Part shown: positions 40,506 through 60,769 of the stretch, piece by piece
Layout: each line of letters opens with the position of its first letter
Position numbering within the stretch: position 1 is the stretch's first letter
Source of the DNA: Marsupella aquatica
Lineage: Eukaryota; Plantae; Marchantiophyta
NCBI GenBank assembly: GCA_973895155.1
Contig: OZ316895.1
Coordinates: 18,423,880 to 18,487,879, forward strand
Length of the DNA stretch: 64,000 bases
Reading direction: 5' to 3'
Notes under the pieces: model-generated
Seen by the model: only the letters and a program-made list of their open reading frames with translations
What the model was told of the DNA's origin: nothing
Database searches by the model: none
Made by a program: the position numbers and the translations under genes

Positions 40506-43500
40506 TAGCTCCCCACTTAATTGTGAAGCGTCCTCGCGAACAACTTCATCTTCGTCCATATAGTATTTCTTGAGGCGGTCATAATGGATGCGAACTGGAT
40601 ATACCTCTCCCGTAATGTTGGCCAATTGTACGGAGCCATTGGGGAACATCATGGTTACTCTAAAGGGTCCTAACCAGCGAGTGTAAAGCTTTCCTGGAAA
40701 CCTACTATACCTACTGTCATAAAGTAGCACAAGATCACCGGTATGAATACTAACTACTTTTAACCTTTTATCATACTGCTGCTTCATGATATTCTGTCTA
40801 TATTCTACTCTCTCGGCTGAAATCATTCTCGCTTCCTCTAAAGCTTCTAACCTATATTCTCGCTCCTTTAGGCTCTCCTCCGCTGAGGCTCTTTCCTCAA
40901 TTGTAACTTGAAATGTCGGTATCTCAAGTTGCATGGGTACCAGGGCTTCTTGTCCAAAGGTTAAGAAGAAGGGTGTATGACCGGTAGTGGATTTATAGGC
41001 AAGATTGTAAGCAAAAACAGCAGCAAACAATTTATCATCCCAATCGAGTTTGTTCTGAGCTACTGTCTTGTTCAATATCTTTCCTATAATTCCGTTTGCT
41101 CGTTCTGTCAACCCGTTTGCCTTTGGATGGTAGGGAGTAGTAGGCCTATGTTTAACTAAATACTGCTCATTTAAACGACTAATTATATCATTCAAAAAAT
41201 GGGTTCCTCTATCACTAACTAATTCTAGGGGTGCTCCATACCTGGTGAAGATCTGCTCATACATGAATCTAGCCGTAGTAATTGCATCATCCTTCGTTGT
41301 TGGTCTGGCCTCTACCCATTTAGTTGCATAATCCGTAGCCAGGATTATGTACTTGTTCCGTCGAGGGTGGGTCAGTGGTTTCAGAGGTCCAATGTAATCA
41401 ATACCCCACTTCTCGAATGGTGCCAGAGGTAGAATAGGGTGTAGTGGATGCCTGGTGGACGCCCTTGGTCCTCCCGCTCGTTGACAAGGATCGCATTGTT
41501 TGATAAACTGATAGACATCTTTGTGCAAGGTGGGCCACCAGTAACCGGCATTTAATATCTTTTTAGACGTGGTTACTGGGGCAAAATGTCCTCCGGCCTC
41601 CTCTCCATGCATGGCCCGTAGGACTCGTTTTACCTCTCTCTTTTCCAAACATCTTTGAATCGTGCCGTTGATTCCATGCTTGTGCAGTATGCCTTTAATG
41701 CACTGATACTGTCTGACCTTCCGCACAAAGACTGCGGCTTGCTCTCGGCTTAATCCTGGCTGTAATCTGGAAGTGCTGAGAAATTGTAAAATCTCAGGGT
41801 ACCATGTACCAGCTATTTCCACAACGAATAGCTCCTCGTCGGGGAATCGATCATCGATGCAATCCGTGGCAAGTTTACCTGTGATCCTTGAAAAGAAGTC
41901 GGCATTGGCATGTAACTTTCCCGGCTTGATCCTCAGCTCATAGTCAAACTCCTGTAATAGCAAAATCCATCTTGCTACTCTGCCTGTAAGGTCCGGCTTA
42001 TTAACTAGGTACTTCAAACTTTCGTGATCAGTATGAAAGATTACCTTGTACCCTAGTAAATAATGCCTAAACTTTTTACAAGAATAAATGACTCCTAATG
42101 CTTCTCTTTCCGTGGTAGAGTAGTTCCGTTCGGCATCGGCAAGCTGACGGCTTGCGAAGTATATGGGATGGTCCCTTCCTTTCTCATCCAACTGACTTAG
42201 TACTGAGCCAATACAGAAGCCCGAGACATCTACAAAAACATGAAAATCTTTGTTCCAGTCCGGTGCTATCATGACTGGGGCCTCTACTAACATCTGCTTC
42301 AATTCTACCACCGCTGTGACTCGTTCGGGTGTGGGTTCGAAGTCTGCTCCTGCCTTGAGCATATTGGTTAATGGTAAAGCTAGCTTGGCAAAATCCTTGA
42401 TGAACCGGCGATAGTAACCAATGCATCCCAAGAAGGATCTTACATCCTTTATGTTCTTAGGTTGCATGATATCTAGCCATACTGCTAGCTTACCTTTGTC
42501 AATCTCAATGCCCTTCCTTGATACCTTGTGACCTAGTAGCACCCCCTCGGTTACTGCAAAAAAACATTTATCTGGGTGTAACTTGAGACCCACCTCTCTA
42601 CATCTCATGAAGGTTTTCCTGAGGTATTTAGCATGTTTCGATGCCTTCCCGAATACTGCAAAGTCATCAATGAAGATTTCCATGAACTTTCTCAAGTAAT
42701 CATGAAAAATGTTCACCATTAATCGTTGGAACATAGCTGGTGCGTTGCAGAGTCCAAACGGCATACGATTGAAGACATAGATCCCCCATTCCGTGATGAA
42801 GGCCGTCTTGATTTGGTCTTCCTGCCGAATCCTGATTTGGTTATAACTAGAGTATCCATCCATGAATGAATATAGTTCATGACTGGCTACCATGTCTAGT
42901 ACCATATCAGTAAACGGTAAAGGAAAATGGTCTTTTAATGTTGCTTCATTCAGCTTCCTGTAATCCTGACAAACCCGGATCTTGGGTTTACCATCGGGTC
43001 CAGCTTTCTTGGGAACTATCACAATTGGAGACACCCAGTCTGAATGCAGGATTGGAGTGATGAATCCAGCTTCCACTAGTTTGTCGATTTCTGTTTTGAC
43101 CAGCAGGGAATACTTCGGGTTCATCCTTCGAATTGGTTGTCGAAATGATTTGGCTCCTAACATGAGATCAATTCGATGTTCCCCTAGTGTTGGATCTACT
43201 CCCTTTAGATCTTGGTGACTCCATGCAAACACATCCTGAAATTCAATCAATAAGTCACTGATCTCTTTCTCGAGCTCAGGTGCTAGGTTTCTCCCTAAGT
43301 TCAGTTCTCTTCCCTCTCCTAAGTCGAGCTTCCGATATTGCCGTGCTTGGATCATATTAATCTGCTTCTTCAAATTCGGGTCCAGTTCGGCTTCCAGTCT
43401 CTCTAATCTCATACCTCCATAAACTGGGATCTCGGCTGGACTAGCCGAGTCGGTCCCTTCCTTGGTGTCCATAGATTGTCCCCTTACCGGTCTATTCGGT

Positions 43501-43760
43501 TTTGAATTAGTGGTCGGCTCCCCTTCCTGCCTTGGCTCTGGATCGTGTCTGTCCATCTCATCCACCTCTTGCTCCTGAGAGTTAGGCCGCTGTGCTCTCT
43601 CGGCTTCTAATAGGGCCTCAATTTGTTCTGCCCTCGTAATCGGCTTGTATGCCGATCCCTTGGTATTTAATTCCTTGCCGATGATCGATGGCGTTGTGGA
43701 CCCCGTCGGCTCTGCCACAACGCCTGCAGAAAATCCACTGTCCCTGCTACTGCTCCCCAC
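40494..43760 (-). CDS. pol: Family-A pol, second tandem copy
   Basis: The 1088-aa translation appears identical to 29611-32877. Confidence 0.92.
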   Translation of the reverse strand: MGSSSRDSGFSAGVVAEPTGSTTPSIIGKELNTKGSAYKPITRAEQIEALLEAERAQRPNSQEQEVDEMDRHDPEPRQEGEPTTNSKPNRPVRGQSMDTKEGTDSASPAEIPVYGGMRLERLEAELDPNLKKQINMIQARQYRKLDLGEGRELNLGRNLAPELEKEISDLLIEFQDVFAWSHQDLKGVDPTLGEHRIDLMLGAKSFRQPIRRMNPKYSLLVKTEIDKLVEAGFITPILHSDWVSPIVIVPKKAGPDGKPKIRVCQDYRKLNEATLKDHFPLPFTDMVLDMVASHELYSFMDGYSSYNQIRIRQEDQIKTAFITEWGIYVFNRMPFGLCNAPAMFQRLMVNIFHDYLRKFMEIFIDDFAVFGKASKHAKYLRKTFMRCREVGLKLHPDKCFFAVTEGVLLGHKVSRKGIEIDKGKLAVWLDIMQPKNIKDVRSFLGCIGYYRRFIKDFAKLALPLTNMLKAGADFEPTPERVTAVVELKQMLVEAPVMIAPDWNKDFHVFVDVSGFCIGSVLSQLDEKGRDHPIYFASRQLADAERNYSTTEREALGVIYSCKKFRHYLLGYKVIFHTDHESLKYLVNKPDLTGRVARWILLLQEFDYELRIKPGKLHANADFFSRITGKLATDCIDDRFPDEELFVVEIAGTWYPEILQFLSTSRLQPGLSREQAAVFVRKVRQYQCIKGILHKHGINGTIQRCLEKREVKRVLRAMHGEEAGGHFAPVTTSKKILNAGYWWPTLHKDVYQFIKQCDPCQRAGGPRASTRHPLHPILPLAPFEKWGIDYIGPLKPLTHPRRNKYIILATDYATKWVEARPTTKDDAITTARFMYEQIFTRYGAPLELVSDRGTHFLNDIISRLNEQYLVKHRPTTPYHPKANGLTERANGIIGKILNKTVAQNKLDWDDKLFAAVFAYNLAYKSTTGHTPFFLTFGQEALVPMQLEIPTFQVTIEERASAEESLKEREYRLEALEEARMISAERVEYRQNIMKQQYDKRLKVVSIHTGDLVLLYDSRYSRFPGKLYTRWLGPFRVTMMFPNGSVQLANITGEVYPVRIHYDRLKKYYMDEDEVVREDASQLSGELCDA

Positions 43761-44806
43761 TTAGCCGTTTCATCCAATTGGTCTACATCCTTTACTTCCT
43801 CCGGAATTGCAGCTAAAAAGGTGGATTCTATTGTAAAGCAGTCCTCGACCTCTTCGTCTTCTTCTTCCAAGTCACCTTCCATTGGTTCTTGCCATAATCC
43901 GCTGGGGGCTACCTCTAGTCCAAAGACTCCTTCTTCGGTTAGGTTAGTGAGGCATTCTAACCAACGTACTTCATCGGCTGACTCCAGTCCACTGTCGTAC
44001 CCATCTACTTCCCTTATGCTTTTCCTACGGTCATCCTTAGTGTCCCAGGATACCGTGATAGAGGGGGTTCCGAAAGTGAACTGCTTTTTACCCCAATCTT
44101 CTATTACCTCGGCTAGGTACAGCCATGGCCTACCAATCAATAGCCGGAATGACGTAGGATTTACCGGCTTCATTACTACATAGTTAATGCTAAAGAAGAT
44201 ACCTCCTATCTCTATCTTGATGCCGGTTAACACTCCCGTAGGAATGACCTGATATCCATTGGCCATGTTCAACACTCTTCCAGTCATCTCCGGTGTTAGA
44301 CCCCACCCTTTTGCTGTTGAATCAATCATAATACATACCCCTGATCCTCCATCGATGGGTACCCGTAGTAATAATTCTCCTTGAATCATTAATGGTAATG
44401 CTGGGGCTCCTTGATCTTCTTCTATCATTAGTACGTCGGATCTGGTTGCTACCTTGGGTAATCTCGGCTTGCCGAGAATAGCCTTCCTTAATTGCTTCCG
44501 AAAATACGGGCTATTTTTCAATAGTTGACCTACTGTTGCCGAGACTCTAGATTCTAGTACATCTTTAGCCAGGTCATAGGGAACAATCGGCTTCTCTTCT
44601 GGTGGTGTTTCCGTCTTGGATTCGGCCAGTTTTGCCACGCTAGTCTCCACAGCTGTTGGGTCTTCCGAAGCAAACAATGCTTTTGCTCGTTTTACTGGGC
44701 GTTTAACAGTTACCCATAGCCGCCGGTACTTAGCGCGCCCTAACCCTAATCGTGTTCCCTCTCCCGACGTCCTTACTTCTGGCCTCGGCTTGGGTTCCAT
44801 AGTCAC
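43667..44806 (-). CDS. Chimeric ORF: solo-LTR-D ORF start, B-LTR remnant, then family-A protease
   Basis: MTMEPKPRPEV...LGLGR comes from LTR D; VKRAKALFASEDP onward matches the protease ORF 32784-33899; junction at 44694-44695. Confidence 0.7.
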   Translation of the reverse strand: MTMEPKPRPEVRTSGEGTRLGLGRAKYRRLWVTVKRPVKRAKALFASEDPTAVETSVAKLAESKTETPPEEKPIVPYDLAKDVLESRVSATVGQLLKNSPYFRKQLRKAILGKPRLPKVATRSDVLMIEEDQGAPALPLMIQGELLLRVPIDGGSGVCIMIDSTAKGWGLTPEMTGRVLNMANGYQVIPTGVLTGIKIEIGGIFFSINYVVMKPVNPTSFRLLIGRPWLYLAEVIEDWGKKQFTFGTPSITVSWDTKDDRRKSIREVDGYDSGLESADEVRWLECLTNLTEEGVFGLEVAPSGLWQEPMEGDLEEEDEEVEDCFTIESTFLAAIPEEVKDVDQLDETAKWGAVAGTVDFLQALWQSRRGPQRHRSSARN

Positions 44807-45854
44807 CCTTAATTGTTTATATTTTCCTTGTTTTTGTTACTATACTAATGTGTTTCCAGCGTACACTCCTGATTTTACCATTTAAATTGGCCTAGTGATT
44901 CCTGGCTAGGCATCACACCTCCCGATGCCATAAGCCGGAACCAGAACCTACGCCCACTGTTCGTCTAGAACAGCTCCTTCCTTGGGCGCAGTCCAAGTTC
45001 CCCCTTGTACCTATCCATCACTAATTGACCGCCCTAACCTCAAGACATGCTCATGGCCCAAATAGCGTAGCTTGTCCTAAAGCTTGTCCTAACACGCCGG
45101 GACCAGACTGGTCCCGACTCTAGCAACCAACTCTCGGTTTGCCCCACTGATGGTCTAGGGACCAAGTACTCTTGGAACTCAACCTCCATACCTACTTGGC
45201 CTTGCCTCCCCAATGCAAGCTCCCTTGGGAGACGGAACGCGGCTTGGCTACTGTTCGACAGGATTTGGCAAGTGGGGGAGTTAACACCCGCAAACCCCGA
45301 GAACCCAAGGTGCCCCCAGACCTAGCTGAGCTCAGCAGGGCGTAGCCCTCCTCAAGAGCTTTCCAACGCACCCAAGAAGTCCTCCAACGGACTTCCCGTT
45401 GGGAAGATATCGTCGTTTCCGTTTGACGGTTTCCCCTAGTGTCGTGACCGCCGCGGCTCACGACTTCTGCTCGCCCTTAGGGGTATAGCGACCGAGACAG
45501 CAAACAGGCAAACAGCAAATACTTTTCCTGTTTGCCTTATGCTGTTACCAGGAAAAAACATCTTGTACCAGGGGAAAGAACACACAATCAGGAGTTTAGA
45601 ATTGTTTAAGTTGGAGTTAGGCCATTGCGGTGAGGGAGGATACCATGTCATGAATCGTTGAACCACATAATAATTAAACCTCATATCCCAACACAAACAA
45701 GGGGGAGCATACATAAAAATGTCAAGGAATGCGCACAAAAATGGTAGGTCCCACCACAATCGGCAACAAAATATATAAAAATAATACAAAATGAATGCAT
45801 CCCAAAACTTTATGGTATTATATGGTCCAAAATAAAAGCGAACAACGTCTTGAC

Positions 45855-48800
45855 TAGCGCCTGGCGCTATCTTATCGGTATTTCAGGAAACAAATAGTTG
45901 GCATTGAGAACATCAAGCACAACACGATGATATTTGACGGTGTAGCCTAAACGACAAAATTATCAGCGCCTGGCGCTAACAAAACATGACGCGACATAAA
46001 TAACACTTTTCCGTTGACATACAAAAAAATCAATATAACCGTTTGGACCAATAATACAACCTACATCATCATGATTCATGCTATAAACCATGAGCATTTT
46101 GCCTCTCTATTATGAGCCGAACCTCTCCAACAGTGAGAATTGGTTGGCTGGTCAATGTAGATTCCTCAATGTCTAGTTTGAAAACGGTAAGGAAAATCCA
46201 ATACAAATGTTTGCAAGGCATATATGGATGTTTCCGAGAATGTCGCCGGTAGAAATCCTCACATGAGCAAGTGGGGAAAATGCAAATTTGAACAAAGTAA
46301 CAATTTGGCGTCCGCATATTTTTGTGCGTTTTCACCTTAAACTGCTTTCCCCATGCATTCCCAATCGCAACATCCCACTCTCCCTGAATGGACATCGTCT
46401 CTTTTTTTGTAGACGCAATTCTGTTCATGTGACCCTGGGTAAGATTTGACCGAGGAACCGTATTCCTCCCATTCCGGCTTCGGAGACAAACATTGGGTTT
46501 GACAAGATTCACATGTTCTGGAAAGATATTGACATTGATTCGAAGATCAAAATCTGACGGGGGTGTAGTTGTACATTCATTTCCGCGCACTAGGGAGATT
46601 CCGTTGTCAAGAAGATATTGCAGCTCGTCTTCCGAAACATTTGTCCCTTTCAAAACGGGAAGAACATCTGGGAAAGGGGGTAGGTTCAATACACCTCGAC
46701 GAGGGCGGCTTCTATAACATGTATTGTTTGGGCAAAACCAAATCATTTCGGTTATGGGTTCCCCCCTGAAAATGCGTTGTCCTTTGACAACAACGCCGAT
46801 AACACCATGTGGTGAGGGAAATCCAACTTTTTTCACGCGATTGCGACACTCATCTCTTTCAGAATTACGGGAAAATGATCCGTTGCACTGAGGACCAGCG
46901 CCAAATTTTGAAGTTCGACGTAATTGCCATGCAGCTGGAGCAACCTCGGTCTCACGGACAAGACACTCTTGTAACGGTTGCTGAAGCACGGAGGGAGCAG
47001 TCTGGGGAAGCCTCGTTGAACGCGTTCGGTCTCGAGCAGGAGGGGTATTGAAATCGACATCTTCTCCACCACCCAAAATGTCACTTCCAGACAGATTAAC
47101 AACAGGATTAACTTGAGGTGTAGGGCCAGGGATAGCATCAAACGTCGTGCAATTAAGATTCTTCCTTTTCATCGATCTAGTATTGGGCAAGGTGACAAGG
47201 ATTTTATCATGCCTATGGGAGTCTTGTGGCGAGATATTCCCAGAAGCATGTCCTTTCCTCTTCAAAGATTTGGTGACAACGTCTCCATTGAGAGGTGCAC
47301 GTCTCTCCAACTCAAACTCGGCAGCATTGGACAGTAGCATATTCATTGCATCTTCATACAACTTGGGGGAGCCTGCCTGGTCCGCTGATTGGAAAGCGAG
47401 TTCCCAAATTGTTGGACCTTTTCCTCTATGCAACCCTTTTCGATACGCAGTGTAAGCAGCAACCTGAGAAATAGCTCAATTTTGGTCCATTTCACATGCC
47501 TCAAAGAGGCCAACCTTTTTCTTCATTACCCATGCTTTCATACCTGCGTGCACGGACTCTGATCCTGTACAATTAGGAATCTTAGCCCCTTCTTCGACAC
47601 TCTTGTTCTGCAATTACATAGAATAAATTGTCCGTTATGCAACAAGAAAACACTAGCGTCGGGCGCTAGTGAAGTAAAGTCTGTACCTAGAAGTAAAAAC
47701 TGGCACTGTCCATTAAGGGATGACTTATTGCGTCGTATTGTGTCATATGACAGTTTGAATAAATGATAGCGCCAGGCGCTAGTATTAAAGGATGCTATGG
47801 TATTGTAATATTTGAATATGGATACAAACATTTTGTAATGAGAATATAGCACAGTAATACCTAAAGAGCGGAAAGCAAAGTAAACTAACTTACCAAACGA
47901 ATAAAATTTCCCCATTGCCTCCACCTGACGACCCACCATGAAATCCAACTCTGGAGCATCCGAAGCTTCCCCGGGACACAGTTACCCGACTGCCACCACA
48001 AATCAATCTCCCTTGAAATTCTGTAAGCCTCTACAAATGTGGGGGCATTTTGCATCTTATCCCAAAGCCTCCGATGCTCTCCTTGACTCTCTTCAATCAC
48101 TCCTTCAACTGAATGGCGATGGAAGGCTTGATAGAAATGGAATGCGTTAGTTCGCTCACGCTCAAGGTTTGGATGCCCTCCAAAAAAGACATTTCGGACT
48201 GCCAGCCAACCAGCTTGAGCATTGTCCGCCATGAATCCATGAATAATTGGATTTTCTAATCCATTCTCCTTGGACACCTCAATCATTAGTCTCCAAGCCT
48301 TCTCGAACGACTCTGTATCCTCCGCTTTTAGTTCGCAGGTAAATAAGGTACACAGAGCGCGATAGTTATGATCGTAAATATGCGCACTAAAAGTAACCCA
48401 GTCTTTTGTGAGTCGTTTCATCACATCAAAACTTACCCAAGAACCTTCGAGACTTCCACCAGGTTGCATTTGTCTCAAAAGATCGACGCCTGATCCATGG
48501 CCGATCGAAGTCATCTTGAATATGTGAGGACGGTCTTCTTGAGACCCTTGACCTGGTAGGAGGTACCTTTGGAGGAAAGGCATGTTGATATTTCTTTGAT
48601 ACCGAACAAGAAAATCTAGTTCACCTCGACCTTTCTGGTCCTGTCTAACACTACGAAAGAGGGACGCAAACTTCTGGGGTGTGGAAACTACCATGAGCGA
48701 CTCAAATATCTCAGTTTCTTCAATATCTTGAATATCTTCCACACTTTCACACAAGGACTTTACAAAAGACCCTGTCGCCACATTTTTTACACCAGCAGGA

Positions 48801-50528
48801 GTGAAAATTGGATTTCCTTCCAATTTCTTTTTGATAACCTCCTCAACAATCTTCTCTGCGCTCCGAGAAAACATCTTTCTTGAAGGATGGTTGTGCATCC
48901 CCATATGAATTGCCAAGCGGGACATGTGAGTACAGGTTTCTGAGTCAACTAGAACCTGGGGGTACATGTAAAATAACCTTGCTGGACAAGATTGGACACA
49001 AAACGGAACTTGATCACAAAATTGGCAAACAACTCCACCTTCGTCAAGGAAGGAGCCAACACGATGTTGCCCGCCAAGTTTAGGGGTTCCACCCCAGGCC
49101 TTTTGGTTCCTCCTTTTCTTCCGTCAAAAATAGTCGCAAGTATTATTCCTACACTCAATGGAACCAGTGCACGTTACTTTACCAAATTCCCAATATTTCT
49201 TGGGATGAACATTAGCTGATGTAGGAAATATTCTGGTCCAGATGTAGCAATCCTTCGACCGGTCCATGTCGCGTAGACGTGACCCCTTTGAAAGAGCTCC
49301 CGCAGGAGGCAACTCGAATACAATATTTCCATTGTATTTCTTTGGCAAACAGCCGACTTGTTCATGGCAGAAGTCCCCAACCGCGATGAACCTCGAGATT
49401 TCACTGGAACCAATTGACTTGAGAATGGTATCCATTGCACTTCTCCGATACACAATGGAATTTTTGGTAAAAACTACTCTAACCTCCTGTTTAACAGGGG
49501 TAACCTCCTGTTTAACAACTGTGTGAGGGGGTTTATCACTAGACTCAGGCAAACCAGAAGGTCCATCATCGTCGCTATCTGAAAGCAAGACAACATCAAC
49601 AAAGGGTTTGGATGAAGATGAGAGATCGGATGCGACTGGTTTTTGAATGACAATAGAATACCAAATTCCTGCATTCAAGTGCCAAAAACGAATCCCGACA
49701 TCAACATCAAAAGAAGCAGTGAAATTAGAGGCTTCATCTCCGTTTCCCTCCTCCAAAATGTCCTCAATGTCATTCAAATCCAAACCAAAGCGCCCACAGA
49801 GATAATTTTCACTAACTTGCTTGTATATGTCATTGGCCGACAATGGAATGGATACAAGGTCACCCGTAGACGGACGCGTCAGAACAATTGACCTCGACAT
49901 TGTAAGATCATCCAACCCAAAAACACTCAGTTCACAATAATGAATGACGTCTTCGAATGCACACAATGGTATTCATAGTCAATAATCCGTTTATCAGAGC
50001 CGTTAGAATACGACAGAATCACTACCGGTCGAAACCACATCTGACACAATAAATGTTTTTTGTCGTTATGTCAACGACATTTACACTAATGAGCCTAAGA
50101 TGTCCGTTTACGAAGACCATAATCATGTTTATTAAATCATCTTAATTGAGTAGCGTCGGGCGCTACTCAAACATCATCACTCCAACATGGACCCAAAATG
50201 GTTCAATATATGTTTAGCGCCAGGCGCTACTCAAACCCACACCCTAAATTGTGGTATAAAACTGGAAAATTTTATCCGGAGTTTCAGAATAAATCCTAAT
50301 GTTTGTAGCTATTTTCCAAATATTATCTAAAATTTTACCAAAATGTTCCCATTTAATATTAGCGTCGGGCGCTAATCTGAAACGGTAATCATGACATTCA
50401 TTTAAGGCAAAATATTCAAAAATTGTATTCATTTTGTTTTTTATTTTATACTTCAGGGTCAATGTTGGCCTAACTTAGGGAAATTTTAGGGTTTGAATAT
50501 TGATCGTTTTGGGTAGCGCTAGGTGCTA
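45855..50528. repeat. Eight dispersed copies of the 15-bp palindrome TAGCG(C/T)CNGGCGCTA
   Basis: Copies at 45855, 45964, 47654, 47767, 50151, 50215, 50360 and 50514 (45964 and 50514 imperfect); none seen elsewhere in the window by eye. Confidence 0.88.
46081..49900 (-). pseudogene. MULE transposase (GCM/WRKY-like Zn finger, DDE core, SWIM finger), one intron 47608-47893, two premature TGA
   Basis: CTGSIECRNNTC..CQFC..CPARLFY..HMGMHNHP; WVSFD..GFMADNAQAGWLAVRNVF..AFH; after a GTAAGT...TGCAG intron, NCTGSESVHA (catalytic E); CSCEDF..MPCKHLYW SWIM. Stops at 49124-49126 and 47476-47478 are in frame. Confidence 0.8.
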
Positions 50529-50982
50529 CCATTGACCAATATCAGATTTGACCTAGGAATATAGATTAAAATAACCGAACTCTTCTTTAATGGTCATATT
50601 CAACGGTAACGTTAGGTCGCGTAATGTTGAAGATATGCCAACGGTATTCTAAACCACTAATCCAGAATTGACAAGTGGCGCTCAGGAGAATGTCGTAAAT
50701 AGATATCAATGTAGCGAGTGGATAGTTTAGAGATGATACTCTCCCCACCTCCCTTGTCCGCTGTATTTAGGCTTCGTTTCGGAGGTTCTTCGTGCAAGAA
50801 TTCTCTAGAAGAAGTACGGTACGAATGAGGTACTCAACACGATCGTGAAGCACTTCATGTGTGGGCGAAACATGGACCCTCTCCCCACCACCTCACATGG
50901 GTATAGTGCTAACGGGCAGAGAGAGTAGATCCATTCCCAGACATCCGAGTGCTCATTTTCTGGATCTGTTTATAGTCGTCGT

Positions 50983-51543
50983 GTGACACGGTCTACAGCA
51001 TCCCAAGATCCTGAAACAGTCATGGTAGTCACATTTCCGAAGAGCAGGAGAGCGAAGATGGACGATCTCGACACATACGCTATGGAAGATCGAGGAGAAC
51101 TGTCACTGACGATGTCCGACGTTATCTCCAAGCACGTTATGGTGTTTGGCAAGGATTTTAGAGGGCACGACAAAGACCCCCCAAGGATTCCAATGTGCCG
51201 CTTGGTTCACATGGAAGTTGTCCGCACCTTACAGAAGGGAAGTCCTTCAATTGAAAAGTTGAAGGACTCTTTTTGTAGCACAGGATACAACTCAAAAATT
51301 GGAATGCTATTCTATGTCCAGCCGGCAGATTCGAATGGGAATGTCCAGACATGTACTCCAGAAATTCGAGCGACTTGGGACCCCGTGTGGGTGGCCGAGA
51401 ACAAGAAGTTTGAAGCTAAATGTGCGGCCAATCCAGACTTCATGGTGTTACAAGATAAGATGTTTTACGTTTTTGACGGTAACCATCAACTTTACGCATG
51501 GTCGATCGTTACGAAAGAAAATCCGGAAGATAGCAAGTATCAC
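50983..51543 (+). pseudogene. ParB/Sulfiredoxin-like domain protein, N-terminal part, interrupted by element C
   Basis: RIPMCRLVHMEVVR..IEKLKDSF..GY..FYV..MFYVFDGNHQLYAW follows the ParB/Srx layout (I-x-x-x-x-L..R..L-x-x-S..G..Y-x-x-x-DG-x-H-R-L-x-A). Q in place of R is CAA, one CpG transition from CGA. Confidence 0.65.
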
Positions 51544-54500
51544 TGTGACGCCGCCGGTACGGCGGTTAATGAGTGATTCGGTCTAACTACGCTCGGCACG
51601 CGCGTTAGAAGTGTCTTAGGCCGCTATTATTAGCATAACGACAGTATTTAGGTAATCATTATGGGTAGAACATCATTAGGCAATAAGGGGGAATTCAGGT
51701 TCGGACTGGCGGCGGGTCGCTATTCGCACACCCGGGTTACGAGCGTGGAGGGGCCCCTCCCTCGGGTCCGTATAACAAACTTAAGGAAGCGGCCACTGAC
51801 ACGCGCTGACTCAGACCGGCGGAGTGACCGGTACACCACAAGCGTGAGCGGTTCAGCCTATGGGCATCGAGGAGACATCGGGGGATCGACAAGCCCTCAA
51901 GGTATAAAAGGGGAGCCAACCCTTTGTAGTGCACCAGTCCATCAGTCCACGCGCCATCTTCGACCCCAGCTCTCTCGTTCGCTCTAAGTCGCCACTACTA
52001 TCTCCTCTGAATCCTCTCCAGCTTGGCCATTCGATTTTGGACGCAGTTCCTATCTACCGGAAGGCACTTGGCCGACTCATTGAAACACGCCAACCCGCAC
52101 CGATACAAAATCGAACGCGAGTACGAGAGAGCCATACTAACAGCAGTGGCACTACCCAGGCCCGATCGGGAGGATGGGGAAGTGTCACCTTCCCCGAGCC
52201 AGTCACGAGGGAAGAAGAGGAAGGAATCCACCACTGCATGCGGGTTACCGTTGGCCACGGTAGCCGTAGCCAAGGTGACGATGCACCGCATGGGGGAAAA
52301 CGTTCACAAAAACATCCTCCATCACAAACATGCGGTGTACCTGAAGACTCAGGGATTCGAGCACCTCGCCTCCCTCCCCTGGAACACTTGCAGGTACTAC
52401 GGGGAGGACATGACGGAGTTCGTCAAGAATTATGACGACGCGCATCAACATACTCGGCTGCGGGGAAGGAGTATGTCCCTCACGGAAGAACGGCTCAGGA
52501 TGACCTTCGGGTTACCCGAAGGTGACCATCGAGTCAAATCACGGGCTCCCGGGGGCAAGGGAGCCAAGTACCAATCTTCAAGTTTTCCCTCAGAGGGAGC
52601 AGTGGACAACGGGTTCGTGATGAGGACCTGCCTCATCCCCAAGATAGCTGAGCGACTGGAGTTCCAGAGGTACGCCCTCCACATGATGGAACCCCGGGGG
52701 GAGATCTCCGCCGCCTAGGTTATCCAGGTCGAGAACTATCGACCTAGGAAGTGGGCGTCGTACTTTGCTAAGAAATTCCATGAAGAGATGGAGCGGCAAA
52801 GGAAGACGCTGTACATTGGCGGGAAGGCGTATTTCGCTAGCCACATCGAGATCATTCTTGAGTGGTACGCCCGGTTTGATCGACGAACCCTTCCCCGTGT
52901 CAATGTTACAAAGCTGGTCCCTGCTAGGTGGGTTTTCCCGGCCTTGGAGAGACGGCCCCAACCGAGGCCCAGAGTCCAGCGGACACGCCAGCTTCACCCA
53001 CCCCACCTCCACAAGTAGCTGTAGTCGTAACTGAGGAGGTACCGGATGGGTCGGTTGTCGCAACCGTTGATGCGACCCAATAAGCCGGGCTAAGTACAGA
53101 AGTCGGTACGGCGGAGGTCTTACCCGAGCTCGGGTCTCCCAGAGACCCACCAGTGGCTATTTCGGAGAACCGGACATTGCTGTAGGAGGACACTCTAGCC
53201 CCTTCCAACGTTACGTCCCCAGGGCTGGACGTCACTGCCCCGGCCCCCGCGCGTGTTGACGTCTGCCCGTGCCCAACTCCGGACAGGCACAACCTGGACC
53301 ACCCGGAACTCTTCGTACCGGGTACATTTCTGAACGGGCTTCTGGGAGATTTCTCTCATCAAATTTCCCGGGATACCGGGGAGTTCATGGCCCGGAAGGT
53401 AGCCTATTTCTTCAATCAGGAGTTGGTTGCCGTAGTAAAGGCAGGTCGGACCCAGTCAGAGGCCCTTCAGAGGATAGAGCGGTACCGGGTGGAGTCCGTG
53501 TACTTAAAGAACAAAGTTGCGGCTCAAGAGGCTGAGCTTCTGCAACTACGACCCAAGGTTGCAGCCGCCAATGAGTTGTTAGCAAAGGTGCACGGTCTTA
53601 CCGCCCTAGCCGAACAGGCCAAAGCTGGGAACGAGGCCGAGATTACACGACTCCGGAACCAGATTGACAGTTTGAAGACTCACCTGGCAGAAAGACCTGG
53701 AGGAGGCCGAGGAACGGGCCCAACGGGACACGGCGGAGATAGCCACGCTGTAGGCTGAGGTGGCGCGGCTCCAAACCGAGGCCGAGAAGCAGGACCAGCT
53801 GGCGGGTAAACTGACGAGCGACGCCCAGCAGCTGGAGGAGGCATGTCAGGAGGCAGCAGAGGGGACGGACACGGCAAGGCGAGAGAACGAATCTCTGCTG
53901 GACCAGGTCCAGCTCCTCAAGGCGGACAATGACAAGCTTCGAAGGCAGCGGGATGGCCGCTCCCATTCGGGCGGCTCTGGCAAGCGTGCCAGGCATTAGT
54001 AGCGGAGTAGGAATAGATTAGGATTAGGACTGGCTTAGTCAGGCTCTTGGGACAGGCACCTGCCTTAGGTACAGCAGCGCTGCCATGCTGTCCAGCCTGC
54101 GTAGATTAGGATCTTCTAATAAGACACAGCCGTTTTCTGGCCTGACTGTCAGCTTGGTTAGGACCTTAGTCAGCGAATCTTCGGCGAGAGGACACCCCAT
54201 CCCTCGGCCCTTAGTATTTAGTGCACCCCTTGGTAGAGGCGAGCGGGGGGTTTTTAGTTTCAGAGTTGGACGTCCGTGGTATATGCAGGGAGTCCCGACC
54301 TCTGGGAATGAAAGAGTACCAAGGGGGGGTAGGACTAAGCTCGCCGGGCGAGTGCGGAGCCAGGCTCCGTTGTAGTGTGCACCCTCGGCCTTGAACCTGT
54401 TCATTCCGGGGCTGTCGGGTCAACTAAGTGTACGCATATGTTCCCTTTGTAGTAAAATCCTTTCCCATCATTTTCCTTCGTGTAAATCAAGATTGTATGC

Positions 54501-54895
54501 ATGTGTGCGTGTATGTGTGTGGGTTTCTCGTATATGGGTGGCAGCGCCAGGCCGAACGCACTACCCGGGATGTGCACAGGATGCAGCCTGCGGGTAAGTG
54601 GTTGCAACCACGGGTTGAGGACCTATATCATTGAATCCGGATCGAAGGCGGACAGCACGAAGGCTTAGAAGCCCTTAAGCCGGGGTCGATCCTGCTATCG
54701 ACTAAGGTACGTTCCGGCGGTGGAACACAAACCATACCTAGGAGGTGTCCGTATTTAGCAGTATGCGCACTTAGTGCTAGTTTACGAGAATAAGGTGCAT
54801 TACGTGCTTCCCTTCCTGCCCGAACCCTCAGATTTACGAGGGATGTGCCCATCTAAGCTGAAGTCTGAGTTAAGGCCGAAGCCGACGACGTGACA
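51544..54895 (+). repeat. 5' LTR of element C (about 3352 bp)
   Basis: TGTGACG...CGTGACA imperfect inverted termini; TATAAAA at 51903; PBS 12 nt after the end. No second LTR in the window to confirm. Confidence 0.65.
52023..53999 (+). pseudogene. LTR-encoded accessory protein of element C, decayed homologue of the family-A LTR protein
   Basis: GFEHLASLPW..DMTEFVKNYD..TRLRGRSMSLTEERLRMTFGLPEG..EISAA*V aligns with GLEAFVRLPW..DLLEFVGSWE..TRIYGKDFYLTPKVIAEVFGLPIG..EIGKAQV; C-terminal coiled-coil fragments at 53387-53999. Confidence 0.75.
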
Positions 54896-54907
54896 TAGCC
54901 TTTGTTT

Positions 54908-54928
54908 TGGCGCTAGATGGAGGGGGCA
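54908..54928 (+). promoter_or_regulatory. Primer-binding site of element C
   Basis: TGGCGCTAGATGGAGGGGGCA, 21/21 identical to the family-A PBS. Confidence 0.8.
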
Positions 54929-55018
54929 CTCTACATATCGTAGAGGGGAGACATGTGCGTATTCACCTAGGCAGGATACATCAGGACGTACTACTAACCA
55001 TCGCATTTATATGAGTAA

Positions 55019-58000
55019 ATGCCCGTCACTCGTTCTCAAGCAGCTTACTTGAGGAGATTGACCAGCGAACGAGAAAGTGCAACCACGATAAGTTCCGATT
55101 CTTTGGGCTCGGAGGACTCGCAATCGCCCCGACGTATGAACATACCCCCGGGACCTTCGGGGTCGGTTTGACCAGTCCTGCTGCGGTTCCTCCGCCACCA
55201 CCACCACCACCGCCACCTCCACCACCACCTATGGGAGCCGCTCCACCGATGGCCCGCGCTGCTCAAGCTCCTCCACAAATATCGCAACGATCGTGATTTC
55301 ATTATCGACCTTTCAAGGGGCGTCATGGGGATGATCCGGATGAATGGTTGGATGAGTTTGAAGCCACTGCTAAAGCTAATGGGGAAGACGCCATTAAGCT
55401 AACCGTCCTCCCGGGAGTGATGCGGGGAGAAGCTCGCCCTTGGTACAACTCGTTGCCACCCGGGACTACATGGGCTCAATTCCAAGCTGCATTGCTGCAG
55501 GAGTTTCGTGCCATTGGATCAGAACAGCGTTCTCTATTAAAGATTGGCCAGCTTCGCATGGGAAAGAAGGAGTCCCTGCGGAAGTTCATTCAGAAGTTTC
55601 AGAAACTTGTGGCCAAGATCCGGCCCAGGCCGGGAGACGCGCTCCAGCTTACATGGTTCCTTCATGGTTTGCCCACAAATATGCAATTCTGGGTACGCCA
55701 GAATAATCCAATTTCAATGCAGGCGGCCATAGCGTGCGCCGAAACTTACCGGGAGTCCACCTATAACTCCCGGCGGAGCCAGCGAGCACGCCGCAAGAAG
55801 GGTAAGTACGAGACCTTCAGTGACAGTGACTCCGAATCGGACGATGAGAGGAAGAAGAAACGCAAGAAGAAGAAGAAACATCGTTCGACCTCGTCCAGCT
55901 CGGAGACGGAATCCAGTTTGGATTCAGCTTCAAGCATCGGATCCTCTACCTCCAGTTCATCAGGAAGTGACTCAAAGAGCGAAAGTCGGAGCAAAAAGAA
56001 GAAGAGACGAGTGAAGAAGGAGGGGAAGATCAAACCCCGGGCGCGAAGAACGATACCAGATCCAAAGGCTGCCAAAGCAGACAAGCTGAACGAAATCACG
56101 GATCGACTCAAAGCACTATCAGTACATCTTGCGGAAAAGCCGGTGGAGAAGAAGAAGCCATCTGAGATTCGAGCCCATGCATGGTGTTCAAAGTGCTTCC
56201 AATCCGGCCATGTGGTGCAGGAATGCCCAAGGTGGAAGAACCGAGTTCACCAAGTAGAGCTAGATGATGTTGACAACCCGGGTCCCGAATCGAAGTCCAC
56301 GGAGTATTTCTTTGAGGACCCTCCTGATTCCGTGTACCAGATTTCAATGGTAGGTCCGCGTAATTTAGCGGGTAGAACTACGTACCCCTACCCAAACAAT
56401 GGCCGGAGTTTCCAGGTTATCAATAACCCGAGCATCCCTCCTAAGCTAGGGATTTGGCGATCCCCGGTTTGTTATAACTGTGAAAAGCCAGGACACTTTG
56501 CGAGGGAATGCACCGAACCAAGATGTCAGGGAGATGGCCGAGGCACCCCACTATGTCAAGTCTGCAAAACGGAGGCTCATTCCACGGCCAACTGTCCGTT
56601 GGTAATCGTTGCTCGAACGAGCGCAGCTAGACCGGCCCAGGCTAGACCGGCCACGAGTGATGCAGTCGTCCAAATGATTGCTGTAGAATGGCAAGATGAC
56701 AATACCGAGTGGGTGAATCTGGTGGACGTGGTGGAACACCCTAATCCATTGGATGAGGCCGAGTGCTACCGAGTGTCGACAAGGGCCGAACGGAAGGAAG
56801 AGAAGACGGAGGAGAAACGAAGGAAAAAGCAAGATACTACTCCGGTGCAGCCAGTGATAGATATACCCCCGGAAAAGGATGATGACTACCGACGGGACGA
56901 CCCGAAGCTATTTTTCCCCCGCATCAAAGAATTGGTAAAGAAACAGCTGGAGGCTTACGAAGCTCGGGAATACTAGAAGGCAATCGATAAGGACATCAAA
57001 GCAGCCGAGACAGCCCGGCGACAGGAGCAAGAAAAGCAAGATAAACAAGAGGAAGCCAAGCAGCAGCCGAAGGAAGAAACGAAGGAGGACTATGATATTA
57101 AGGAGGACATGAAGAGTTGCCCGGTTACAGCGACGGTGGGGCAACTGCTGCAGAACAACCCACAGTATAGACGGCAACTAAGGGAGTTGCTCATGGGTCG
57201 CCAAAGGAGAAGACTACCCCGAGTTGGGATCGCGGACTGCAACATGATATACGAGGACCTTGGAGCGCCGGACATCTCGATCGAAATTAATAATTGTACC
57301 ATCAAGATGGTTCTTGTAGACGGAGGAGCGGGAGTCAACATCATGACTGAAGAAACGTCAGTCAAGTTAGGATACCTCACGTATCAACCCACAGCCCGAG
57401 CTATCAGATTAGCAAACGGGGCAAGGGTCCTCGCATTAGGCACGCTCACACGAGTGCTCACTCTGGTGGGAGGGGTGGAGTTCTATCTCAACTTCCTAGT
57501 CATGAGGCCGGTTTGTCCCTCCTCTTACCCGATTCTTCTGGGCAGGCCGTGGCTGTACGGTGGCCGCGTAGTCACGGATTGGGGAAAGAAGGAGCTACGG
57601 TTCGGGGAACCCACCATACGGGTATCATGGGCAATGGACGATTATCAGGGAGAAACCCCACAAGGACCCAAGGAATATGATTCGGAGACCTCAGAGGAAG
57701 AGGAACTCAATATGATTGAACTCATCTTGTCCCTGTCCGAGGAAGATGTCTTCGGAGTTGAAGAAACCCGCAAAACACATCTCCTAAATTACCCGAGGGC
57801 TGCCATTGAGTCCACCCCAAGCACATCTACTGCCGGGGATGAGGAAACGCACGAACAACTTGTCGAGATGGAGGACACGGCTCCAGCTAAGCAGGGAGCC
57901 GAGGATGCTTCTACCATTGCAGAGCCTCGTGACCACGAACCAGCCCAACAATCGCCCCCGAGGCCGAAAACTCGAGACCGAGACATAAGAAACGAGTCTC

Positions 58001-58035
58001 ATGGGATCCATCCATTCCGCAATTGGAGGAAGTAA
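55019..58035 (+). pseudogene. gag-protease of element C
   Basis: MPVTRSQ start, HYRPFKGRHGDDPDEWLDEF, three CCHC knuckles, VLVDGGAGVNIM, ILLGRPWL; in-frame stops and one early frameshift. Confidence 0.85.
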
Positions 58036-60769
58036 CTCCAATCCTGAGACCAATCCTGGTTCCACCCATGTACGGAGGAGTTTGGTTAGCTGAGCTTGAT
58101 GCGAGCCTGGACCCGAGCCTGCAAAACCAGGTTGAAGTCATCAGGAAGGAGCACTACCGGAAGTACACCATTGGGATGGACAAATCTTTTAACCTGGGCC
58201 ACGCTCTGACAGGGGAGGCTGAAAAATCCATCCAAGCTTTGCTCAAGGAATATGAAGATGTGTTTGCATGGAGTCATCATGATTTAACAGGCGTCTCCCC
58301 CGAGTTGGGAGAACACACGATCGATCTGAACCTAGGAGCCCATGCGGTACGGCAGCGACAACGTCGCATGAACCCGAGGTACTCCATCTTAGTGAAGGAG
58401 GAAATTGATCATCTCCTCGCCGCCGATATCATCTACCCGGTAATGGCCAGCGACTGGGTCTCTCCCATTGTTATTGTACCAAAGAAGGGAGGTACGGATG
58501 GAAAATCTAAGATTCGTATTTGTCAAGACTACCGTAAGCTGAACGACGCAACCCGAAAAGACCATTACCCATTACCATTCACGGATATGGTTCTAGATAT
58601 GGTAGCCCAAAATGAAATCTATACATTTCTTGACGGGTATTCAGGTTATAACCAAATCTGGATTCGCCTCGTGGATCAGCTCAAAACAACTTTCACTACG
58701 GAGTGGGGGACTTTCGCATTTTGGAGGATGCCTTTCGGTCTGTGTAACGCCCCGGCCATGTTTCAGCGCCTTATGATGAATATCTTCCACGATTTCCTAC
58801 GGGAATTTCTGGAGAGATTTATCGATGACTTTGCCATCTTCAAAACCGTTGCCATGCACCCCGAACACCTAAGACGAACGTTGCAACGATGCCGAGATGT
58901 TAACCTCAAACTACATCCCGCCAAATGCTTCTTCGGGGTAGAGGAGGGGGTGTTACTCGGGCATCATGTGTCCAAACGGGGCATTGAGGTGGACCAAGAG
59001 AAAGTTGCGCCCTGGATGGCAGTGGTGTTCCCCGTGGATCAAAAAGCAGTATGATCCTTCTTGGGCTGCGTAGGGTATTACCGTCGGTTCATTAAAGATT
59101 TTGCTAAAATAGCTTTGCCCCTAACAGAGATGATGAAAAAGGACACGGTGATCGAGGAGACCCCAAGGAGACGGGTTGCTTTCGAAGAACTCCGTAAAAG
59201 ACTCACCACCGCACCTATCATGGTCACTCCAGACTGGAACAAGGAGTTCCACGTGTATGTCGACGTGTCAGGGTTCTGTATCGGGTCTGTGCTTAGTCAG
59301 CTTGATACGGACGGACGCGATCACCCCATCTACTTTGCTAGCCGTCAATTATTCACAGCCAAAAAAAATTATTCCCCCACGGATCGAGAGGCACTGGGCA
59401 TAATCTACTCATGTAAGAAGTTCCGACACTATCTGCTCGGCTACAAGGTCATCTTCCACACGGATCACGACAGCCTGAAGTACATGGTCAACAAAGCAGA
59501 CGTAACGGGACGGATAGCCCGTTGGGTGCTACTTCTCTAGGAATTTAACTACGAAGTTTGGGTTCGGCCAGGAAAGGCACACCTCAATGCCGACTTCTTC
59601 TCACGGCTGGATGACGTACCAATCGATCAACCAATTGATGATATTTTTCCGGATGAGGAGTTGTTCCACGTAGGGGAGGGGACACCAACGTGGTACGGCT
59701 CAATAATCACCTTCCTTTTAACGGGCCGCATCCCTGACGGCATCAATCAGGAGGCCACCGTTGTGTTTTTACGGAAAGTCGGGCCTTACGTCATGATACA
59801 GGGTCATCTACATAAGGAAGGTATTAATGGAAAGTTACGACGCTGCTTAGAGTATAAGGAGATGCTTATCGTGATGCGGGCCCTACATGAAGAAGAAGCT
59901 GGAGGCCATTTCGCGGCGGTCACGACAGCCCGAAAGATTCTGGACTCGGGGTATTGGTGGCCTACGTTGCATCGGGATGTACAGCGCTTCATTAAGGGCT
60001 GTGACTTGTGTCAGCGAGCTGGGGCCCCGAGGCGGGCTCATCATCACCCGCTCACATCTGTGCTTCCATTGGCACCATTTGAAAAATGGGGAATTGATTA
60101 TATCGGGCCGTTTACTCCCGTTACCCGAAGGCGAAGATGCAGGTACATCCTACTAGCTATTGATTACTCCACCAAGTGGGTCGAAGCGCGGGCTACGATA
60201 AAGGACGACGCCGCAACCAGTGCCAGATTCTTATACGAACAGATTTTCACCCGATTCGGCCCGCCCTTAGAATTGGTAAGCGACCGTGGAACCCACTTCC
60301 TCAATGACACCGTAGCCCAGCTTACGGAGCGTTACCTAGTCAAGCACCGCAAGACTACCCCGTATCATCCTAAAGCCAACGGGATGGCGGAGAGAGCAAA
60401 TGGTATCATTGGGAAGATCCTCAACAAAACTGTAGCTGCGCACAAAACGGATTGGGATGATAAGTTGTACGCAGCGGTGTACTCGTATAATCTAGCTTAC
60501 AAAACTTCTACGAGTCACAGCCCGTACTTTCTTGTGTTCGGCCAACATTCGTTGGTGCCCGTCAAGTTTGAAGTACACACTCCACGGGTCAGCATTCGGG
60601 ATCGCTTACCTGAATCTGAAAGTTTGTCAGACCGAGCTTATCAGATTGAAGCCTTGGAAGAAGCACGGCTACTAGCAGCTCGACACGCCGTGAAGAAACA
60701 GGCAACTTCGAAGAAGCAGCACGACAAAGGACTACGAAGGGTCGACGTCGTGGCAGGCGATCTAGTCCT
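58023..60769 (+). pseudogene. pol of element C (RT, RNase H, integrase) with premature stops
   Basis: RICQDYRKLN, FIDDF, FHVYVDVS, KWGIDYIGP, VSDRG, NGMAE; cut at GDLVL by an LTR insertion. Confidence 0.88.

What the first reader, a model, noticed from the sequence alone, without database searches (positions are those of the whole stretch)
45480..51543. Mutator-like transposon with a ParB-like partner gene and parS-like palindromes
Seen: a MULE transposase (minus) and a ParB/Srx-like ORF (plus) are arranged head-to-head about 1.1 kb apart, and a 15-bp palindrome occurs eight times, only in non-coding parts of this unit. Known: bacterial ParB is a CTP-dependent clamp that loads at 16-bp palindromic parS sites and spreads; Arabidopsis VANDAL MULEs encode VANC, which binds short motifs in non-coding regions and demethylates the element. 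Inference: a eukaryotic transposon may use a ParB-like load-and-spread module, for example for sequence-specific anti-silencing or end synapsis. The C-terminus (possibly an HTH or a DNA methyltransferase, as in ParB-MTase fusions) lies beyond element C and cannot be seen. That both genes belong to one element is itself inferred.
Basis: partly seen in the sequence, partly recalled or inferred. Interest (0 to 1): 0.85.

Follow-up and report, generated by a model that had tools for sequence, protein, structure and literature searches.

The report
Plant transposon with ParB-methylase partner gene
This is a broken copy of a many-copied plant jumping gene that sits head-to-head with a second gene of the bacterial ParB DNA-clamp fold and carries eight copies of one mirror-image DNA word in its non-coding parts; the second protein likely recognises that word to mark or shield its own element, an idea already raised for algal transposons but untested.

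Summary
Observation confirmed. Eight 15-bp palindromes (consensus TAGCG[C/T]C-N-GGCGCTA) lie only in non-coding parts of 45481-51543, two of them in the transposase intron. The transposase is Mutator/IS256-like (DDE, SWIM finger, two in-frame stops). The partner ORF belongs to a large family with a ParB/Srx fold: 12 of 12 structural matches at Z>=2 among 48,161 chains are ParB/Srx proteins, and Boxes I-III are conserved. An LTR element cuts it at 51544; other copies run on in frame. Full-length relatives in Riccia and Adiantum (~1,200 aa) end in a beta-class N6/N4 DNA-methyltransferase-like domain with a non-canonical catalytic motif; no HTH was found. The whole unit is repeated in two organisms, but no contig spans both genes, so linkage is supported, not proven. 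Binding, nucleotide use, spreading and anti-silencing are untested. The pairing is published for algae (Ectocarpus Sola1-1_Ec32, red-algal PAG3), with self-binding proposed. This is a land-plant Mutator-like variant with an unusually clean candidate site. Interest 0.5.

The parts
45481..51543 (.). Visible part of a multi-copy two-gene Mutator-like DNA transposon; the right part lies beyond nested LTR elements, outside the window
   Evidence: all 30 bins covered in 4 of 4 runs; junctions at 45480/45481 and 51543/51544
45481..45500 (.). Probable left end (begins GGGTATAGCGAC; holds a near half-site at 45486-45492). Could be one base further left. TIR and TSD not determinable
   Evidence: table 7: in 7 contigs of run X2 the flanking repeat goes on with another sequence behind 45480 (agreement 0.94)
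47894..49900 (-). Transposase exon 1 (669 codons): Cys/His-rich N-terminal region, D492, D559, (C/D)xxH motif (N585 here); in-frame TGA at codon 259
47608..47893 (-). Transposase intron (GT..AG, 286 nt) holding two palindromes
   Evidence: close homologues' ORFs break at the same place; same intron position in L005
46081..47607 (-). Transposase exon 2: catalytic E (SESVH), C-terminal SWIM finger; one in-frame TGA
   Evidence: SWIM Pfam hit in homologue P0192, E 6.8e-5
51022..51543 (+). 5' part of the partner gene: ParB/Srx-fold domain (Box I VR, Box II GNHQ here and GNHR in most copies), cut before Box III by an LTR element
45855..45869 (.). Palindrome 1 (perfect), downstream of the transposase
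45964..45978 (.). Palindrome 2 (1 mismatch), downstream of the transposase
47654..47668 (.). Palindrome 3 (TC-G variant), in the intron; arms extend 3 bp further
47767..47781 (.). Palindrome 4 (perfect), in the intron
50151..50165 (.). Palindrome 5 (TC-G variant), between the genes; arms extend 5 bp further
   Evidence: also in a contig of run X2
50215..50229 (.). Palindrome 6 (perfect), between the genes
   Evidence: also in a contig of run X2
50360..50374 (.). Palindrome 7 (TC-G variant), between the genes
50514..50528 (.). Palindrome 8 (2 mismatches), between the genes
51544..60769 (+). Inserted Ty3/Gypsy-type LTR retrotransposon that interrupts the partner gene (not part of the unit); itself interrupted at 60770
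   Evidence: 19-20 contigs with unrelated sequence before 51544 (agreement 0.39-0.41)

Best explanation
This is a decayed copy of a multi-copy, two-gene Mutator-like plant DNA transposon whose second gene begins with a ParB/Srx-fold domain and, judging by relatives, likely ends in a DNA-methyltransferase-like domain; that protein is predicted to bind the element's own 15-bp palindromes and would thereby mark or shield the element against host silencing. Shown: the palindromes and their non-coding placement, the DDE/SWIM transposase, the ParB/Srx fold with three conserved nucleotide boxes, the methyltransferase-like C-terminus in liverwort and fern relatives, and the repetition of the whole unit. 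Inferred: (1) this family has the same C-terminus; (2) a dimer reads the two-fold site through the uncharacterised helical middle region; (3) NTP binding (CTP is only one option) gates loading or spreading; (4) the methyltransferase-like domain writes 4mC/6mA or, where the catalytic aromatic residue is lost, binds or flips bases without methylating; (5) the outcome is family-specific escape from 5mC silencing, as with VANC.
For: Sites: (8 of 8 non-coding, p 1.4e-4). The spread over intron, intergenic and terminal DNA is the one reported for VANC21 sites (PMC5735166, passages). In run X2 a 229-bp contig over 50118-50346 has 4 differences, and 4 other places there differ in all X2 depth, so sites 5 and 6 are unchanged in it (my deduction). 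Fold: model of P0001 (44% identical, E 3.7e-35) at pLDDT 92; Z 8.4, rmsd 2.3 A over 91 residues to M. xanthus ParB; 12 of 12 hits at Z>=2 among 48,161 chains are ParB/Srx-superfamily proteins (assignment of SspE, BrxU, Osa and Atu1540 is from my knowledge). Boxes over 102 rows: R 88%, G-N-H-R 93/99/91/81%, Box III N 82%. Other copies continue in frame past 51543 (PRVQCT..) in 4 of 4 runs and mostly have R where the window has Q. C-terminus: Pfam N6_N4_Mtase E 9e-6 to 5e-5 in 3 of 5 Riccia proteins scanned, PADLOC/PHROG methyltransferase hits, Foldseek E 2.7e-5 to CcrM; a fern protein keeps DLPF. The window domain groups with the Riccia fusions (SH-aLRT 94 and 90, quick trees). Precedent: PMC12477816 and 10.1101/2025.02.11.637652.
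Against: No binding, nucleotide or methylation data. No contig spans both genes. The one named transposase relative (R1sor_024525) is 24-26 locus numbers from the nearest known partner genes, not adjacent. The C-terminus of this family was not seen. No HTH or other known DNA-binding domain was found in the middle region. Foldseek gave no ParB match at E<=0.001 (best 0.023) and the best Z of about 8 is middling. The methyltransferase hits are below Pfam's cut-off (26.2 against 26.7 bits) and that model is poor (pLDDT 42.6). None of 22 motif-IV matches is canonical [DNS]PP[YF], and 21 of 22 lack the aromatic residue. Many ParB-fold fusions bind ATP, GTP or nothing detectable (17 of 28 showed no binding; PMC12704722). 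A near half-site lies 5 bp inside the left end, as a transposase site would. The arms extend by site-specific flanks, which a simple protein site does not predict.
Confidence: 0.5

Rival explanations
1. The palindromes are transposase sites (end synapsis or self-activation), and the ParB-methyltransferase-like gene is a co-travelling helper with no sequence specificity of its own.
For: Near half-site TAGCGAC at 45486, 5 bp inside the probable left end. AtMu1 transposase alone binds and hypomethylates cognate copies (10.64898/2026.08.24.746577, section 7). No DNA-binding domain was recognised in the partner. Phage ParB-like activators can lack a DNA-binding domain and not need the NTP residues (PMC13229309, abstract).
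Against: AtMu1 peaks were at the TIRs, whereas 6 of 8 sites here are in the intron or between the genes. A 30%-identical transposase gene (L005) shows no repeated palindrome in its intron or 3' DNA (whether it has a partner is unknown). Inverted-repeat arrays also go with ParB-like genes in red-algal elements that have a different transposase.
Confidence: 0.25
2. The palindromes act as structures (RNA hairpins in UTRs and intron, or DNA cruciforms) rather than as double-stranded protein sites.
For: Arms extend beyond the 15-mer by 0,1,3,0,5,0,2,2 bp with different flanks at each site: sum 13 against a null mean of 2.8, p 4e-4; flank permutation p 0.009 (test devised after seeing the pattern). 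All five imperfect sites extend; the three perfect ones do not.
Against: A fixed 15-bp core repeated eight times suggests sequence reading. The stems are short. No Rfam match in 45000-55200. Template-switch mutation at quasi-palindromes could lengthen arms without selection (own knowledge).
Confidence: 0.1
3. Two separate elements lie side by side: a Mutator-like element and a piece of another element that carries the ParB-like gene.
For: No contig spans both genes. Such accessory genes move between transposon superfamilies in red algae. The right end is not visible.
Against: One motif is spread from 45855 to 50514. All 30 bins are covered in 4 of 4 runs, and no shared junction between the genes is among the loose ends shown (1,085 rows not shown). 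The opposite-strand layout matches Ectocarpus Sola1-1_Ec32.
Confidence: 0.1
4. The partner is inert captured cargo and the palindromes are host transcription-factor sites.
For: This copy is broken; the catalytic motif is degenerate in Riccia.
Against: The family has 209 clusters at 50% identity with conserved nucleotide boxes and a conserved architecture in a liverwort and ferns. The motif is absent from the rest of the window.
Confidence: 0.05

Closest known systems
ParB-like + N4C/N6A methyltransferase accessory protein of Ectocarpus Sola1-1_Ec32 (PMC12477816, passages)
   Same: About 1,100-1,200 aa ParB-like + amino-methyltransferase protein on the strand opposite the transposase; self-binding and self-modification proposed, untested.
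   Different: Sola-1 transposase in a brown alga against a Mutator/IS256-like one in land plants. The passage names no binding site. The plant motif IV is non-canonical. Sequence kinship was not tested.
PAG3/PAG2 of red-algal Plavaka elements (10.1101/2025.02.11.637652, section 8)
   Same: ParB-like gene beside inverted-repeat arrays, proposed to bind and modify its own element; homologues reported in Chondrus Mutator elements.
   Different: PAG3 is fused to a 2OG oxygenase and the methylase is a separate gene. The repeats are tandem arrays beside one gene; here single sites are spread over intron, intergenic and 3' DNA.
VANDAL21/VANC21 of Arabidopsis (PMC5735166, passages)
   Same: Mutator-like element with an accessory gene and short motifs in introns, intergenic and terminal non-coding DNA.
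   Different: VANC motifs are 8-9-base words in tandem repeats, not dispersed 15-bp palindromes. VANC function is shown. Homology to VANC was not tested directly; no such Pfam hit appeared.
Bacterial ParB/parS, Noc and KorB CTP clamps (PMC11790492, PMC12704722)
   Same: N-terminal fold, Box I R, Box II GxxR, Box III N; palindromic candidate sites. KorB shows that a mobile element can use such a clamp for gene control and tolerates a non-Glu residue in Box II.
   Different: About 11-16% identity, a helical insertion of about 45 residues before Box II, no HTH detected, a methyltransferase-like tail in relatives, no ParA.
Phage/prophage ParB-N6N4-methyltransferase fusions (PMC12704722 section 7; PMC4738411 passages)
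   Same: Same two domains in the same order; a plausible source (inference).
   Different: Prokaryotic and shorter; only weak sequence links were found (tblastn E 0.01-0.4 to phage methylases in the rows listed).

Membership tests
Mutator/MULE (IS256-related) transposon | DDE triad with (C/D)xxH motif | tested here: met
   D492 and D559 in 16 of 16 rows, H588 in 15 of 16, E of SESVH aligns with L005 AETVH; window has N585 in place of C/D. Relatives P0192 and P0197 hit the IS256 model at E 0.003 and 0.009, far below its cut-off.
Mutator/MULE (IS256-related) transposon | Zinc finger (SWIM) on the transposase | tested here: met
   CxC..CKH in exon 2 aligns with P0192, Pfam SWIM E 6.8e-5.
Mutator/MULE (IS256-related) transposon | Match to Pfam MULE transposase models | tested here: inconclusive
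   No MULE hit for the window pieces or for 25 of the 53 homologues that were scanned; divergent branch.
Mutator/MULE (IS256-related) transposon | TIRs and 8-11 bp target site duplication | not testable with these tools
   The right end is outside the window and no genome is held.
ParB/Srx superfamily | ParB/Srx fold | tested here: met
   on the model of homologue P0001 (44% identical to the window ORF).
ParB CTPase clamp | Box I R, Box II GxxR, Box III N | tested here: met
   88%, 93/81% and 82% over the 102-row alignment. The window copy has Q for R, most other copies R; Box III lies beyond the insertion.
ParB CTPase clamp | Central HTH that reads parS, and C-terminal dimerisation domain | tested here: inconclusive
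   No HTH hit by Pfam, NCBIfam or PDB sequence search; the middle region was not folded and searched alone.
ParB CTPase clamp | CTP binding/hydrolysis, site-dependent loading and spreading | not testable with these tools
   Nucleotide choice cannot be predicted from sequence (PMC12704722).
Beta-class N6A/N4C DNA methyltransferase | Motif IV before motif I, Rossmann fold, SAM-binding loop | tested here: met
   In relatives only: order and loop (DFAGGWG, DVMAGCG); Pfam PF01555 just under cut-off and precomputed on 4 of 26 hits; Foldseek to CcrM and M1.HpyAVI from a low-confidence model.
Beta-class N6A/N4C DNA methyltransferase | Catalytic motif [DNS]PP[YFW] | tested here: not met
   0 of 22 motif matches are canonical; 21 lack the aromatic residue, one fern protein has DLPF. 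Not visible for the window's own family. The canonical motif is recalled.
Algal-type ParB + amino-methyltransferase transposon accessory proteins | Both domains in one protein, encoded in a DNA transposon opposite the transposase | tested here: inconclusive
   Fusion seen in relatives; opposite-strand layout seen in the window; both together not seen in one locus. Homology to the Ectocarpus protein not tested.
VANC-type anti-silencing system | Motif confined to non-coding parts of the element | tested here: met
VANC-type anti-silencing system | Accessory protein binds the motif and lowers methylation of cognate copies | not testable with these tools
   Needs ChIP/EMSA and methylomes.

The most novel reading that the evidence does not exclude
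Liverwort and fern Mutator-like transposons have turned a phage-type ParB-methyltransferase fusion into a nucleotide-gated sliding clamp that loads at the element's own parS-like palindromes, spreads over the element and writes or mimics a 4mC/6mA mark that keeps host 5mC silencing off: a ParB load-and-spread device working in a plant nucleus.
Probability: 0.2. Interest if true: 0.9.

Novelty: new variant of a known kind. Interest (0 to 1): 0.5.

Why it matters
[quoted passage not shown] This family extends the architecture to seed-free land plants and to a divergent Mutator-like transposase that Pfam misses. It also supplies one short candidate site placed as VANC sites are, so the proposal can be tested with one protein and one oligo. 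If the clamp model holds, it would be a CTP-type sliding clamp acting on eukaryotic chromatin and a second, independent route to element-specific anti-silencing. I found no paper on it in land plants, but the library lacks most subscription journals.

Tried and rejected
No whole genome is held, so intact copies, TIRs and TSDs could not be recovered. Pfam, NCBIfam and PHROGs found nothing for the window's ParB ORF; no ParBc hit among 102 family members, only weak DUF1015 and DndB hits in 4 members each. A word-seeded search for longer homologues found none among 89 candidates. PDB sequence searches with the ParB, methyltransferase and transposase alignments gave nothing significant; the full-length alignment gave CcrM at E 0.034. 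The metagenome scan gave 4 loci of 1.2-1.8 kb, too short to test linkage, none with the 15-mer. Viral contigs gave no relative of either gene. The genome scan gave one locus, L005, which starts inside the transposase. No gene model among the proteins held joins transposase and partner, which a head-to-head layout would not give anyway. No RNA holder was listed. The homodimer prediction for P0017 135-420 returned no verdict (score 0.00, alignment not used). Both trees are quick trees; the careful searches did not finish (132 of 153 domains of at least 105 aa, then 58 hand-picked rows). CpG o/e across the parts (0.69-1.05) was uninformative. The likeness of the site to KorB OB (TTTAGCGGCTAAA) is limited to TAGC..GCTA with different spacing and was set aside as probable chance. 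Kinship with Marchantia DN4MT1 (TSPPY) was considered; the motifs differ and no sequence test was made. No Rfam match. Look-ups of earlier findings by sequence and place were empty.
Full report
Observation. The pattern search found eight sites of the 15-bp palindrome between 45855 and 50528 and none elsewhere in 64 kb at up to two mismatches; shuffles gave a mean of 0.09 matches. Three sites are perfect, three share one variant, two are decayed. Two lie downstream of the transposase, two in its intron and four between the genes. Non-coding DNA is 33% of the unit, so 8 of 8 has a chance of 1.4e-4. A near half-site lies at 45486.

Boundaries and repetition. No genome is held, so I used contigs of four public runs (two organisms, two studies). 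All 30 bins over 45200-51900 are covered in 4 of 4 runs by many contigs at 85-99% identity, the intergenic stretch included; depth is not a copy number. On the left, the flanking repeat goes on with another sequence behind 45480 in 7 contigs of X2 (agreement 0.94), so the unit was inserted there and begins at about 45481. On the right, 19-20 contigs carry unrelated sequence before 51544, which marks the end of an LTR element. No listed contig spans both genes. One X2 contig over 50118-50346 has four differences, and four other places there differ in all X2 depth, so sites 5 and 6 are unchanged in it (my deduction). One contig each in X3 and X4 (one study) shows a local duplication at site 6. 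Linkage of the genes is therefore supported but not proven. One earlier AI note reports head-to-head pairs in 9 of 21 related copies in another genome (e1-9727448); I did not check it and do not count it as support.

Transposase. Exon 1 runs 49900-47894, a GT..AG intron 47893-47608, exon 2 47607-46081, about 1,180 codons with two in-frame TGA stops. A search with exon 1 gave 53 homologues among 3,502 candidates, at 28-71% identity; one is named, from Riccia sorocarpa. D492 and D559 are invariant in 16 rows, the (C/D)xxH motif is kept (N here), the E of SESVH aligns with L005, and a SWIM finger ends the protein. Two relatives hit the IS256 model weakly; Pfam MULE models do not match. It is a divergent Mutator-like transposase; TIR and TSD could not be tested. 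L005, a 30%-identical gene with the same intron position, shows no repeated palindrome in intron or 3' DNA.

Partner. The ORF 51022-51543 has 209 relatives at E<=0.001 among 1.84 billion representatives; 150 were listed and one (P0003) is a spurious repeat. Named ones come from Riccia sorocarpa and two Adiantum species. The model of P0001 (44% identical) has pLDDT 92. Foldseek's top ten are Noc, KorB and ParB, none at E<=0.001. VIA gives Z 8.4, rmsd 2.3 A over 91 residues to M. xanthus ParB, and in the unbiased search all 12 hits at Z>=2 among 48,161 chains belong to the ParB/Srx superfamily (four assignments from my knowledge). Box I R, Box II GNHR and Box III N are 81-99% conserved. KorB hydrolyses CTP with a non-Glu residue in Box II (PMC11790492, passages), but nucleotide choice cannot be read from sequence and 17 of 28 purified ParB-fold proteins bound none (PMC12704722, abstract, passages, sections 7-8). 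In 4 of 4 runs other copies continue past 51543 with the expected residues, and most have R where this copy has Q.

The hidden C-terminus. Full-length Riccia relatives (about 1,200 aa) have a disordered N-terminus, the ParB domain, a helical region of about 400 residues, a charged linker and a beta-class amino-methyltransferase-like domain. Evidence: Pfam N6_N4_Mtase just under cut-off in 3 of 5 proteins scanned and precomputed on 4 of 26 Riccia paralogues; PADLOC and PHROG methyltransferase hits; Foldseek E 2.7e-5 to CcrM from a poor model (pLDDT 42.6). Fern proteins carry the same tail. Of 22 motif-IV matches none is canonical; 21 lack the aromatic residue and one fern protein has DLPF. Catalysis is therefore doubtful in the Riccia clade and open in ferns. 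The window's domain groups with the Riccia fusions at SH-aLRT 94 and 90 in quick trees, below the starred level; that it had the same tail, and that the host is a bryophyte, are inferences. No HTH was detected. The Atlas links a Riccia member to fungal DUF3723 clusters (scores 0.93-0.94, 162-167 shared features, family on 17-51% of members), a lead only.

Mechanism. A two-fold site repeated in every non-coding part of an element that encodes a ParB-fold protein fits best with the partner binding it as a dimer, nucleotide binding gating loading or spreading, and the methyltransferase-like domain marking or shielding the DNA (0.5). The placement matches VANC21 sites (PMC5735166, passages). The main rival is that the transposase reads the sites (0.25): a near half-site lies at the end, and AtMu1 transposase activates its own family, though at the TIRs (10.64898/2026.08.24.746577, abstract and section 7). 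A ParB-like activator of phage dioxygenases needs neither a DNA-binding domain nor the NTP residues (PMC13229309, abstract), a warning against assuming a clamp. One oddity is unexplained: the arms extend by site-specific complementary flanks (sum 13 against 2.8; p 4e-4, permutation 0.009; post hoc).

What is known. Earlier notes of this scan pointed to prior art, which I read. Ectocarpus Sola1-1_Ec32 encodes a 1,104-aa ParB-like + N4C/N6A methyltransferase protein opposite its transposase, and the authors propose a class of accessory proteins that bind and modify their own elements (PMC12477816, passages; it cites Iyer 2011, which I did not see). Red-algal Plavaka elements carry a ParB-like gene beside inverted-repeat arrays, with homologues in Chondrus Mutator elements (10.1101/2025.02.11.637652, passages and section 8). 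ParB-N6N4-methyltransferase fusions are frequent in phages (PMC4738411, passages). A MULE survey names no such gene in the passages found (PMC6446971). Searches for a land-plant case found none. I read no supplements; those of bioRxiv are closed, and the Bostrychia Supplemental Table 6 could list further associations.

Verdict. A real, ordinary-looking decayed copy of an unusual element. The architecture and the self-binding idea are published for algae, so this is a new variant: land plants, a divergent Mutator-like transposase, a non-canonical methyltransferase motif and a clean dispersed candidate site. Several other windows of this scan show similar pairings (unchecked notes), so the pattern is not unique to this locus. 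Interest 0.5; the clamp reading has probability 0.2 and would deserve 0.9.

Noticed in passing
window 7330-8097 (-): Uninterrupted 255-codon ORF with a Pfam SdpI/YfhL hit (E 7.7e-12), a mostly bacterial membrane-protein family (own knowledge), near a plant mitochondrial-carrier exon at 1173-1919; a possible horizontal transfer.
   Followed up: partly
window 24955-33812 and 35847-44695; 60770-64000: Two tandem Ty3/Gypsy copies 99.66% identical over 8.9 kb and a third at 94%, with extra coiled-coil ORFs 3' of pol.
   Followed up: no
window 47654, 50151, 50360, 50514, 45964: All five imperfect palindromes have complementary flanks that lengthen the arms by 1-5 bp; the three perfect ones have none. 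Unexplained.
   Followed up: partly
window 51544-54925: The inserted LTR element carries ORFs (52011-52718, 53186-53999) between its start and a primer-site-like sequence near 54907, so either a very long LTR or an unusual layout.
   Followed up: no
P0026 (Riccia partner protein): Atlas features place it nearest fungal DUF3723 clusters (0.93-0.94). DUF3723 is recalled as Starship cargo; the link suggests a wider eukaryotic ParB-like family.
   Followed up: partly
L005 1-4101: An intron-containing transposase gene of this family sits on a 4.1-kb contig of a cyanobacterial genome bin; probably eukaryotic contamination.
   Followed up: partly
   Followed up: no
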